Assembly: GCF_006345805.1 (NCBI RefSeq) | Contig: NC_042998.1 | Span: 135,470,001-135,534,000, forward strand | DNA from: Octopus sinensis | Taxonomy: Eukaryota | Direction of reading: 5' to 3' | DNA length: 64,000 nucleotides | Shown: positions 35,749 through 37,961 of the stretch, piece by piece | Layout: each line of letters starts with the position of its first letter | How positions within the stretch are numbered: position 1 is the stretch's first letter | Program-made: the position numbers and the translations under genes | Notes under the pieces: generated by a model | What the model saw: only the letters and a program-made list of their open reading frames with translations | Database searches by the model: none | Told to the model about the DNA's origin: nothing

Positions 35749-36129
35749 GCATATGTTTGTATACATGTGTGTGTAGCTATTTAGGATCTACACAATTTTA
35801 TATATACTCCACGAAGTTTACGATAAGCGGAGATGTTTACATGTTAGCTATTTACATGTTTACGTTAACTACGTCACAAAATAGCTGTTTACGTCACAGT
35901 AACAATATTTTGAGAGGCAGTAAATAATATGAAGTCGAAAGAAAGAATGCCATTGGTTAAAATTCGAATTATTAAACAACGTTAAACTTAGAAATTACAA
36001 TTCCGTTTTCATTTTGGTTTACAATTATGTTTTCTTTTGACACATTCTACCAGTATACGAAGTTTCAAATTGTTTAGTTAACTAGGAAAATCTGGCCTTC
36101 AAACTGAAAAGATCCCACATCATCAACCA

Positions 36130-36740
36130 GAAATCTCAACCACCTGCTTTTTTCTCACGTCAAGTCAAGCCAACAGAACAGCGTTACTGAGAGCTCTTAG
36201 CAGTTTATCTTGCTGTGAGATACTTCCGCCATCTTCTAGAAGGTCGGAGTTAACGATATTCACAGATCATAAACCTCTTACATTCGCTCTTCAGTCCGAG
36301 TCTGATAAATACTCACCGAGGACATACAGACACTTGGATTTCATCTCGCAATATACCAGCGACATTCGTCATATAGCCGGATCTGCAAACATACCTGCTG
36401 ATGCACTTCCTGTGTGTTCACTTTCGTCTCCTGCACACATCGATTTGGTTGCTATTGCCACAGACCAACCTTCTTTGGACTCTTTGGACACTTCTTCCAA
36501 CCAATATTTCTGTTGCAGATTTGAATACTTAGCTCTTCCGTCTGTTGAAGGACGAATCCTTTGTGACATCTCCACCGGCTCACCTAGACCGCTTCTTCCA
36601 CATCGTCATCAGCGTACCGTTTTCGATGCTCTTCATTCCTTGTCGCATCCGGCATAGCCGCCACGGTAAAACTCATTACAGCCCGTTTCTTCTGGCCTAA
36701 CATGCGCCGTATAATCACCAGTTGGACACGTTCTTGTTTG
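36130..36740 (+). mobile_element. Ty3/Gypsy RNase H-integrase fragment
   Basis: ELLAVYLAVRYFRHLLEG, IFTDHKPL, DFISQYTSDIRHIAGSANIPADAL, and the zinc-binding region H..SHPGI..FFWPNM..C..C. Confidence 0.8.
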
Positions 36741-36859
36741 CAGTGGTTTCCTGTGGCTTTGTACCAAATACGGACACAACACAGACTATTATACCGACGC
36801 AAATGAAAAGGGCACATCCACCGAACGAGATAACTATAACATCGAGGACGTCAGCACAC

Positions 36860-37256
36860 CATCGACAACGAAATCCCTAGTGACACACTTGAGTGGGTCA
36901 CTCTCCCATGAAGAACTAGAACTTCTCAGTCTGCACCCTAAACTTATCTTGAGTTAAGAGCCGAACGAAAACATCTTATTCGACCTGGAAGCTAACTTTT
37001 GCCGAACAGCCTGTCAACTCAAATGGCTATCGGTGATAAAGAACAACAACAGCAACACACTCGGCAAATTTCTCACATACCAACTAGACCAGCCACTCCA
37101 CCCACCCCCAACCAACCGAGAACTCAACCACAAACCATCCAGGCTGAAACAGTCTATCTCCAACATCTTACGGAAGAAATCGAAAATAATACCAAACTTA
37201 ACCAAAGCGCAACATAAATCATTGACAAAACTAAAAAAAAACCCAACTTAATACAG
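36860..37256 (+). mobile_element. PLE ORF N-terminal remnant
   Basis: LSHEELELLSLHPK.. and PNLTKAQHKSLTKLKKNP resemble the pre-RT segment of Penelope ORFs (LSLGPKF; NLTKEE..ALK.LK). Confidence 0.45.
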
Positions 37257-37332
37257 TTCTATATTTAAGAGACGAGGAATTATGTACATTATTTACATTT
37301 GACAGATATTTGTCCTCATCTTGTTTGTTGTT

Positions 37333-37378
37333 AACACAACGTTTCAGCTGATATACACTCCAGCCTTCATCAGGTGTC
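37333..37378 (-). ncRNA. Minimal type I hammerhead ribozyme
   Basis: gacac-CTGATGA-a-GGCTG-gagtgtatat-CAGCT-GAAA-C-GTT-gtgtt. Confidence 0.75.
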
Positions 37379-37425
37379 TTGGCGAAATTTCGAATCTAGG
37401 TTCTCATTCGTAAGGTATTTTTCGA

Positions 37426-37492
<67 letters not shown>

Positions 37493-37496
<4 letters not shown>

Positions 37497-37564
37497 TCAC
37501 TGCCTGGAATCGGACTCAGAATCTTGGGGTTAGTAGGCCGCACTCTTAACCACTACGCCATATG
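37493..37564 (-). promoter_or_regulatory. tRNA-like Pol III internal promoter head (left arm)
   Basis: Minus strand reads catatggcgtagtggttaagagtgc..ctactaaccccaagattctgagtccgattccaggcagtgacctg. The A box is intact and the B box is mutated (GAGTCCGATT). Confidence 0.6.
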
Positions 37565-37581
37565 GTACTCTTAACCGCTAC

Positions 37582-37656
37582 GGGCATATGGCGTAGTGGT
37601 TAAGAGCGCTGGCTACTAACCCCAAGATTCCGAGTTCGATTGCGAGCAGTGACCCG
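37582..37656 (+). promoter_or_regulatory. tRNA-like Pol III internal promoter head (right arm)
   Basis: A box TGGCGTAGTGG, anticodon-like loop CT-ACT-AA and B box GAGTTCGATT. The acceptor stem is not intact, so this is SINE-like rather than a tRNA gene. Confidence 0.7.
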
Positions 37657-37692
37657 AATAATAATAATAAAATAATAATAATAATAATAATA

Positions 37693-37731
<39 letters not shown>

Positions 37732-37792
37732 CAACAACAACGACATCGAAAAATACCTTAGGAATAAGGACCCAAGTTCGAAATTTCCACAA

Positions 37793-37838
37793 GACACCTG
37801 ATGAAGGCTGGAGGGTATATCAGCCGAAACGTTGTGTT
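37793..37838 (+). ncRNA. Minimal type I hammerhead ribozyme
   Basis: gacac-CTGATGA-a-GGCTG-gagggtatat-CAGCC-GAAA-C-GTT-gtgtt. The core is perfect, helix II has 5 bp, helix I is gacac/gtgtt, and a palindromic AACGTT replaces helix III. Confidence 0.8.
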
Positions 37839-37961
37839 AGCAACAAACAAGATGAGGACAAATAGTTGTCAAATGTAAATAATGTAAATGGTGTACATAA
37901 TTCCTCGTCTCTTAATATAGAAATATAATAATAAATGAACAAATAAATAAATAAAACTTAC

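What the first reader, a model, noticed from the sequence alone, without database searches (positions are those of the whole stretch)
37257..37922. tRNA-promoted, hammerhead-bearing non-coding element in a head-to-head palindrome (candidate Pol III 'SINE-retrozyme')
Seen: two inverted ~310-340 bp units. Each consists of a tRNA-like head with A/B boxes, an (AAT)n linker, a minimal hammerhead (CTGATGA / 5-bp helix II / GAAAC-GTT) and an AT-rich tail ending ataattcctcgtctcttaa(a)tatagaa. The 17-nt centre repeats part of the head, which suggests template switching. Established: minimal type I HHRs with palindromic helix III occur in PLE pseudo-LTRs and retrozymes and work as dimers; inverted termini are a PLE hallmark; tRNA heads define SINEs. 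Inference: this is a non-autonomous element transcribed by Pol III, processed by its own ribozyme and mobilised by a PLE reverse transcriptase rather than a LINE. I do not know this combination as a described class.
Basis: partly seen in the sequence, partly recalled or inferred. Interest (0 to 1): 0.85.

Follow-up and report, generated by a model that had tools for sequence, protein, structure and literature searches.

The report
Penelope retrotransposon with tRNA-type promoter
The palindrome is two back-to-back, shortened end-pieces of a very abundant protein-coding jumping gene of the Penelope type, whose end carries a tRNA-like promoter that likely makes it be read by RNA polymerase III, an enzyme normally used for short non-coding RNAs.

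Summary
The sequence description is right; the reading as a separate non-coding SINE is not. The unit is the pseudo-LTR plus ORF start of an autonomous Penelope/Poseidon-type element (RT + GIY-YIG). The head follows the endonuclease gene in 28 of 30 loci. Short and ORF-linked copies have the same majority sequence. The hammerhead and 'AT-rich tail' lie inside the ORF's first 52 codons. Inverted pairs with one tailed arm (35 of 43) are the known PLE signature. Tandem arrays are rare and copies show no trace of ribozyme cleavage, so it is not a retrozyme.

The unusual part is a tRNA-type A/B-box promoter in the pseudo-LTR. Copy 5' ends stop sharply just upstream of it (mode -8; 4938 versus 896 exact 20-mers across the step, then a plateau). 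The ORF majority has no T4 run (p 0.02-0.10). Pol III transcription is likely for the short RNAs (about 0.6) and possible for the whole 2.7-kb coding element (about 0.4), untested. tRNA promoter plus hammerhead is known from schistosome Sm-alpha; I found no report of it in an autonomous PLE.

The parts
37251..37564 (-). Left arm: 5'-truncated copy of the PLE pseudo-LTR/ORF start, from head position +3 to the end of the tail
   Evidence: same layout behind the GIY-YIG gene
37495..37564 (-). tRNA-like head of left arm; A box 37560-37550 intact, B box 37515-37507 mutated
37429..37492 (-). (AAT)n tract of left arm (5' leader of the ORF in the source element)
37405..37407 (-). ATG that opens the PLE ORF in source-type copies
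   Evidence: (ATG in 252 arms; next commonest triplet 15)
37333..37378 (-). Minimal type I hammerhead of left arm; helix II first pair G-U; predicted cut after 37338
   Evidence: sequence
37251..37284 (-). PLE 'tail' (about 34 nt between the two preferred 3' ends); runs on into the ORF in full-length copies
37565..37582 (.). 18-nt junction: GT plus an inverted repeat of head +10..+25, sharing ACG with the start of the right arm
   Evidence: (D6); like junctions
37580..37656 (+). tRNA-like head of right arm from position -3; A box 37589-37599 intact, B box 37634-37642 mutated
37657..37742 (+). (AAT)n/(AAC)n tract of right arm
37764..37922 (+). Decayed first 53 codons of the PLE ORF (ATG mutated to ATA, one stop), holding hammerhead and tail
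37793..37838 (+). Minimal type I hammerhead of right arm; predicted cut after GUU at 37833
   Evidence: sequence; features as in PMC4209133
37896..37922 (+). PLE 'tail' of right arm (ends 5-6 nt short of the usual end)
36748..37241 (+). Insertion site, not part of the element: fragment of a second, unrelated PLE family, cut off at the palindrome
   Evidence: 28% protein identity to this family; no continuation in the window

Best explanation
The palindrome is two inverted, 5'-truncated copies of the pseudo-LTR and ORF start of an autonomous Penelope/Poseidon-type retrotransposon, and these short copies likely come from an RNA that RNA polymerase III starts at the tRNA-type promoter inside the pseudo-LTR. 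Steps: (1, shown) Source loci read head - (AAT)n - ATG - hammerhead - tail - ORF (RT, GIY-YIG) - 3' UTR - head again. (2, inferred) Transcription starts about 7-8 nt upstream of head position 1, some 14 nt before the A box. (3, from the Anolis PAc work plus the two 3'-end modes shown here) The PLE protein nicks both DNA strands and primes reverse transcription inside the RNA at two sites about 125 and 155 nt into the ORF. At the upstream junction the cDNA runs only about 300 nt before the RNA ends, which gives SINE-sized copies that outnumber ORF-linked ones about 9 to 1. (4, inferred) Two such cDNAs join head to head, helped by the self-complementary 12-mer at the RNA 5' end, giving one tailed and one untailed arm. 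(5, inferred) The hammerhead is not used to make these copies; cleavage would cut the start codon off the ORF and may limit expression. (6, weaker) The whole 2.7-kb unit lacks T4 runs and may itself be a Pol III transcript. The two window copies have broken B boxes and are probably dead.
For: Identity (about 0.97 alone): head directly after the EN stop region in 28 of 30 loci and body in 29 of 30 (four of these loci are near-duplicates, one is the query). Full-length copy L141. RVT_1 E=1.2e-9. 782-codon majority frame with YVDD, CxC and GET. Head-body-ORF junctions in L207, L213, L218, L226. Same majority sequence in short and ORF-linked arms. 3' ends bimodal: 80 of 203 short arms end at 143-151 and 99 at 172-178. 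One tailed plus one untailed arm in 35 of 43 inverted pairs, as described in 10.1101/2021.04.23.441226 and PMC11167929. Promoter: majority A and B boxes fit the consensus at tRNA spacing; 58 of 149 arms keep both. 5' ends: 19 of 109 arms at -8, 75 between -7 and +12, 15 further upstream. Genome-wide exact 20-mers: 4938 (head), 896 (57 nt upstream), 934 (166 nt further), controls 0; about 17,000, 1,900 and 2,300 arms after correcting by exact-match rates (my arithmetic). T runs: 28 of 650 T3 runs extend to T4 over copies, 0 of 12 in the majority, against 43 of 192 in a second PLE family and 359 of 1219 in 70 metagenome relatives. Arms of one palindrome share more non-majority bases than shuffled pairs (0.60 vs 0.23; 0 of 2000 shuffles; 48 pairs).
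Against: No transcript, start site or polymerase was observed. The -8 mode coincides with a self-complementary 12-mer, so snap-back or RT stalling could make the step without an RNA end. The T4 lack rests on one source lineage: p=0.016 (base shuffle), 0.041 (synonymous shuffle) and 0.10 (control codon usage). 8 of 70 metagenome relatives also have no T4, and single copies are not significant (L312 p=0.47; L144+L063 p=0.3). An uncapped Pol III RNA translates poorly (own knowledge). The only mapped PLE promoter is a LINE-like TATA-less internal one (PMC2377424). No tRNA model scores the head. Both window arms carry a tail, which only 2 of 43 pairs do.
Confidence: 0.62

Rival explanations
1. Ordinary PLE with a Pol II promoter in its pseudo-LTR. 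The tRNA-like piece with its (AAT)n is an old SINE insertion carried along, and the 5' step marks a Pol II start or a hairpin-driven stop of the RT.
For: D. virilis Penelope has an internal TATA-less promoter in the pLTR (PMC2377424). The step sits at a self-complementary 12-mer. (AAT)n looks like a LINE/SINE tail; other elements ending in AAT are nested in it. T4 lack is only p 0.02-0.10.
Against: The step falls where A/B boxes would place a Pol III start. Both boxes match the consensus in the source although the cloverleaf is decayed. 75 of 109 arms end just inside -8, as expected near an RNA end. T4 runs are rarer than in controls.
Confidence: 0.25
2. One reading: an independent non-autonomous SINE-retrozyme lineage, transcribed by Pol III from its own copies, cut by its ribozyme and copied in trans by a PLE.
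For: Most copies are about 300 nt and begin at the head. 58 of 149 arms keep both boxes, so some short copies could be transcribed. 4 of 28 head-anchored copies have head plus (AAT)n or less with no body behind.
Against: No diagnostic base separates short from ORF-linked copies. The body is coding. No 5' ends pile up at the cut site (10 of 255 arms in that 10-nt bin, like neighbouring bins). Same-strand second copies in only 5 of 86 loci. In PAc the RNA must extend to ORF nt 172, past the priming sites (PMC11167929), sequence that short copies lack.
Confidence: 0.08
3. A long Pol II transcript is cut at the tRNA-like fold by RNase P, and the downstream piece is the template.
For: A sharp 5' boundary near the tRNA +1 position (11 arms at -1).
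Against: 40 of 109 arms keep 3 to 8 nt upstream of head position 1. The acceptor and T stems are poorly paired (read by eye; fold z=-0.27).
Confidence: 0.05

Closest known systems
Penelope/Poseidon-clade PLEs, e.g. Poseidon of Anolis carolinensis (PAc; PMC11167929) and D. virilis Penelope (PMC2377424)
   Same: Single ORF RT + C-terminal GIY-YIG; pLTR from partial tandems; hammerhead overlapping the ORF start; two 3' ends 30-40 nt apart inside the ORF (tail); inverted truncated partner; uncleaved RNA as template.
   Different: pLTR holds tRNA-type A/B boxes and (AAT)n; 5' ends step at that promoter; ORF majority lacks T4. Penelope uses a LINE-like TATA-less promoter with an intron.
Schistosome Sm-alpha / Sj-alpha (seen through PMC6765202 and PMC2770079; originals not read)
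   Same: tRNA-derived Pol III promoter followed by a type I hammerhead; tens of thousands of short dispersed copies.
   Different: Described as non-coding SINE-like repeats with canonical active hammerheads in tandems. Here the unit is the end of a coding PLE, the hammerhead is minimal and copies are inverted pairs.
Animal non-LTR retrozymes (PMC7229834; 10.64898/2026.07.22.740005)
   Same: Short hammerhead-bearing sequences derived from PLE pLTRs.
   Different: Retrozymes are tandem, cleavage-defined, circular-RNA units. Here tandems are rare (5 of 86) and ends follow RT priming sites, not the cut site.
TRIMp3 elements Cassandra, Helenus, Ajax (PMC10886601)
   Same: Small-RNA-derived Pol III promoter inside a terminal repeat of a retroelement.
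   Different: Non-autonomous LTR elements; that paper argues autonomous partners must use Pol II. Here the promoter sits in a coding PLE.
tRNA-derived SINEs (SINE2)
   Same: tRNA-like head with A/B boxes, simple repeat, about 300 nt, high copy.
   Different: 3' part is the 5' end of a PLE ORF, not a LINE tail; no separate lineage; no target duplication seen at the window copy.

Membership tests
EN+ PLE, Penelope/Poseidon clade | [quoted passage not shown] | tested here: met
   782-codon frame, YVDD, YSIPCSC...GET; RVT_1. Pfam gave no hit on the EN-bearing segment; EN rests on motifs and on alignment A1.
EN+ PLE, Penelope/Poseidon clade | No extra Zn finger in the RT-EN linker (present in Neptune, Nematis) | tested here: met
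   Linker in alignment A1 shows none; CxC only near the N terminus and in EN; criterion from 10.1101/2021.04.23.441226.
EN+ PLE, Penelope/Poseidon clade | Phylogenetic placement among named clade members | not tested
   No named reference proteins were on hand; the 7 homologues are unnamed.
EN+ PLE, Penelope/Poseidon clade | pLTR, inverted 5'-truncated partner, 30-40-nt tail on one end | tested here: met
   (35 of 43 pairs)
PLE minimal hammerhead | Core, extra base between 9 and 10.1, G10.1-C11.1, palindromic 15.2-16.2 | tested here: met
   Sequence of right arm against PMC4209133; left arm has G-U at 10.1-11.1.
PLE minimal hammerhead | Self-cleavage as dimer or with protein help | not testable with these tools
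   needs an in vitro assay
PLE minimal hammerhead | Covariation or excess conservation of core and helices | tested here: inconclusive
   Core 4.1% (26 of 629) vs flanks 4.7% and 5.9% in 61 unselected arms; copies decay neutrally from one source, so the test has little power.
tRNA-derived SINE | tRNA-derived head with A and B boxes | tested here: met
   no tRNA model hit
tRNA-derived SINE | Non-coding lineage independent of its autonomous partner | tested here: not met
tRNA-derived SINE | Pol III transcription | tested here: inconclusive
   indirect only: 5' step, T4 lack
Non-LTR retrozyme | Tandem repeats of hammerhead units | tested here: not met
   5 of 86 loci have a same-strand second copy within 900 nt, 43 of 86 an inverted one
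Non-LTR retrozyme | Unit ends set by ribozyme cleavage; circular RNA | tested here: not met
   No 5' pile-up at the cut site; 3' ends lie 50-87 nt past it. Circles were not testable.
Sm-alpha/Sj-alpha type | Pol III promoter upstream of a hammerhead | tested here: met
   layout only; no sequence comparison with Sm-alpha was made
Sm-alpha/Sj-alpha type | Non-coding, released from multimers by cleavage | tested here: not met

The most novel reading that the evidence does not exclude
An autonomous, protein-coding retrotransposon that captured a tRNA-derived SINE head as its pseudo-LTR promoter and is transcribed end to end (2.7-3 kb) by RNA polymerase III, having purged T4 terminators from its ORF. 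Internal priming near the RNA 5' end makes it produce SINE-like copies of its own promoter by the ten thousand, which could also be how Sm-alpha-type tRNA-plus-hammerhead repeats arise.
Probability: 0.4. Interest if true: 0.82.

Novelty: new variant of a known kind. Interest (0 to 1): 0.56.

Why it matters
Autonomous retrotransposons are held to need Pol II (stated in PMC10886601), and only one PLE promoter has been mapped in the papers I read (PMC2377424). A PLE driven by a tRNA-type promoter would show that an RT-endonuclease can be made from an uncapped Pol III RNA, would give a route from PLE pseudo-LTRs to SINE-like and Sm-alpha-like repeats, and is directly testable. Even if Pol III makes only the short RNAs, a family of roughly 17,000 or more tRNA-headed copies that looks like a SINE is really a PLE end, which matters for repeat annotation. 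The fossil ends also extend the PAc internal-priming model to a second lineage and suggest how head-to-head pairs are joined.

Tried and rejected
Rfam (5 kb, E<=1; 306 nt of L115, E<=10) and ARAGORN: no tRNA or hammerhead hit; relaxed ARAGORN on metagenome loci gave noise. Single-strand folds of head, hammerheads and tail are no better than shuffles (z -0.75 to 0.82). The PLE fragment left of the palindrome as the partner: rejected, none of its 18 other fetched copies has the unit within 1.5 kb and it is 28% identical in protein. Hammerhead conservation test: uninformative. Cleavage-defined ends: not found. Target duplication at the window copy: none seen by eye. B box within 700 nt behind 80 metagenome PLE relatives: 0 of 80, many cut short, so no second lineage for an independent T4 test. 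Sequencing runs: no RNA holder listed; four guessed-RNA contig sets cover the unit but show neither strand, ends nor expression, so they are not used. Intron in the pLTR as in Penelope: no listed joint fits one; weak test. Earlier-findings look-ups by sequence, by six words and by place returned nothing. Repbase and Dfam could not be searched, so the family may be catalogued there. Supplements were not read; those of the two bioRxiv preprints are closed and may list such families.

Full report
Observation. The window holds two inverted arms, about 37251-37564 (-) and 37580-37922 (+), 84% identical. Each has an A box, a damaged B box, an (AAT)n tract and a minimal type I hammerhead with the features listed in PMC4209133 (passages read): an extra base after A9, G10.1-C11.1 and a palindromic helix III. 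The predicted cut is after 37833. The centre is 18 nt with a 16-nt repeat of the head. ARAGORN and Rfam find nothing. The genome is 2.72 Gb; it looks like an octopus to me, which is recalled and untested. The 47-nt hammerhead stretch occurs exactly 731 times, the reversed control 0 times. Contigs of runs labelled organisms C, E, F and G cover all 29 bins of a stretch with head, body and ORF start.

What it is. In five of the first 30 loci the sequence continued upstream of the head and translated as the end of a GIY-YIG endonuclease. Of 30 loci fetched with that piece, 28 have the head directly behind it and 29 have the body on the same strand (one is the query and four are near-duplicates of each other). 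Upstream lies a reverse transcriptase (RVT_1, E=1.2e-9; no Pfam hit on the EN-bearing segment). L141 is a full-length copy of 2.6 kb. A column majority of 46 long segments gives one open frame of 782 codons with YVDD, CxC and GET and no extra zinc finger in the linker. That fits Penelope/Poseidon by the criterion in 10.1101/2021.04.23.441226 (Introduction and passages read); no tree was built. Seven unnamed homologues are 52-68% identical.

The unit is a permuted junction. The tail runs straight on into the ORF in full-length copies, and L207, L213, L218 and L226 show head, (AAT)n, hammerhead, tail and ORF in one run. The frame is open from an ATG 34 nt upstream of the hammerhead core (ATG in 252 arms, the next commonest triplet in 15). 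So the hammerhead and the 'AT-rich tail' are the first 52 or so codons of the ORF. PAc of Anolis has a similar overlap (PMC11167929, main text read). Short arms (128 heads, 203 bodies) and ORF-linked arms (36, 26) share the majority base at all 74 and all 178 columns. There is no separate SINE lineage. The head travels with the body: 24 of 28 head-anchored copies have it behind them, and 4 do not.

3' ends and palindromes. Of 203 short arms, 80 end at body 143-151 and 99 at 172-178, about 125 and 155 nt into the ORF. PAc primes at two internal sites, one 111-118 nt into its ORF, and the tail is the stretch between them. Of 86 loci picked only by the hammerhead, 43 have an inverted body on the 5' side; 35 of these pair a tailed with an untailed arm, 2 have two tails like the window, and only 5 of 86 have a same-strand second copy. 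Arms of one palindrome share more non-majority bases than shuffled pairs, so they tend to come from one event or have converted each other. 5' ends do not gather at the ribozyme cut site, and many ORF-bearing copies keep a whole hammerhead upstream. The template was uncleaved RNA, as reported for PAc. This rules out the retrozyme reading (PMC7229834 passages; 10.64898/2026.07.22.740005 main text).

The unusual part. In those 86 loci only 5 of 81 head-bearing arms reach more than 30 nt upstream of the head. Fine mapping of 109 arms that cover the start of the head gives 19 at -8, 75 between -7 and +12, and 15 further upstream; 10 of the 19 have no inverted head beside them. Genome-wide, exact 20-mers number 4938 inside the head, 896 just 57 nt upstream and 934 another 166 nt upstream, controls 0. 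With exact-match rates of 48 of 166, 31 of 64 and 21 of 51 (pooled by me) that is about 17,000, 1,900 and 2,300 arms: a ninefold step, then a plateau. Copies that pass the step run on for a median of about 400 nt. The step lies about 14 nt before an A box that matches the consensus, with a consensus B box at tRNA spacing; 58 of 149 arms keep both. That is where Pol III would start (own knowledge). The ORF strand also avoids T4: 28 of 650 T3 runs extend to T4 over copies and 0 of 12 in the majority, against 43 of 192 in the second PLE family and 359 of 1219 in the 70 of 80 metagenome relatives with at least 800 nt.

Against. The copies come from one source lineage, so the T4 result is one observation: p=0.016, 0.041 or 0.10 by the null used, and 8 of 70 relatives also have none. 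The -8 mode sits on a self-complementary 12-mer that can fold back or pair with a second cDNA; this explains the head-to-head joins but could also make the step without an RNA end. The hammerhead core is not clearly better kept than its flanks (4.1% vs 4.7% and 5.9%). No RNA evidence was obtained. D. virilis Penelope uses a TATA-less internal promoter (PMC2377424, abstract and Discussion). None of 80 metagenome relatives shows a B box downstream.

Mechanism. Shown: the layout, the family identity, the end distributions. Inferred: transcription starts at the tRNA-type promoter; the PLE protein primes inside the RNA about 300 nt from its 5' end; the cDNA runs off the end; two cDNAs join head to head. 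I put identity at 0.97, an RNA 5' end at the step at about 0.75, Pol III for the short RNA at about 0.6 and Pol III for the whole coding unit at about 0.4. The window copy is a dead product with two broken B boxes, inserted into a fragment of another PLE family.

Known and new. A tRNA-derived Pol III promoter followed by a hammerhead is described for Sm-alpha and Sj-alpha (passages of PMC6765202 and PMC2770079; originals not read). Small-RNA promoters in terminal repeats are described for non-autonomous TRIMs, with the remark that autonomous partners must use Pol II (PMC10886601 passages). Ten searches (listings, plus the passages cited) showed no autonomous PLE with a tRNA-type promoter; the library lacks most subscription papers, and Repbase and Dfam were out of reach. 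Passages of two cephalopod repeat papers (PMC6962438, PMC13282606) do not describe it. Three unchecked earlier notes from other genomes report tRNA-bearing, ribozyme-free repeats with PLE-type ends; they are leads that tRNA modules recur in PLE-mobilised RNA, not support.

Verdict. New variant of a known kind, interest 0.56.

Noticed in passing
window 36748-37241 (+); L033-L050: Fragment of a second PLE family (RT + GIY-YIG with extra cysteines in the linker, so Neptune/Nematis type by eye), 41 matches in the search; used as control for T runs.
   Followed up: partly
window about 36000-36660 (+): Broken LTR-retroelement-like RNase H/integrase remnant (label recalled from motifs).
   Followed up: no
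window 7192-7140 (-): Another A-box/B-box tRNA-like element, unrelated to this family; probably an ordinary SINE head.
   Followed up: no
G000:C2:134773598-134774755 (L002, L016, L032): The palindrome and its flanks are duplicated at 99% identity about 730 kb away in inverted orientation; segmental duplication or assembly duplicate.
   Followed up: no
L008 2150-2860, L009 900-1560, L012 800-1560, L018 260-1500: A roughly 600-nt element and LINE 3' ends sit nested in the (AAT)n tract, flanked by AAT repeats; the tract is an insertion hotspot.
   Followed up: no
L207, L218, L219, L224, L225, L227: Several copies break off about 400-420 nt into the ORF and some resume in the pLTR: a recurrent jump point, or partly an artefact of the query ending there.
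   Followed up: no
head +5..+13 (window 37587-37595): A two-codon upstream ORF (ATG GCG TAG) overlaps the A box; could bear on translation of the main ORF.
   Followed up: no
L234, L246 (metagenome contigs): Two 1.8-kb PLE coding stretches with no T4 run and no B box found downstream.
   Followed up: no
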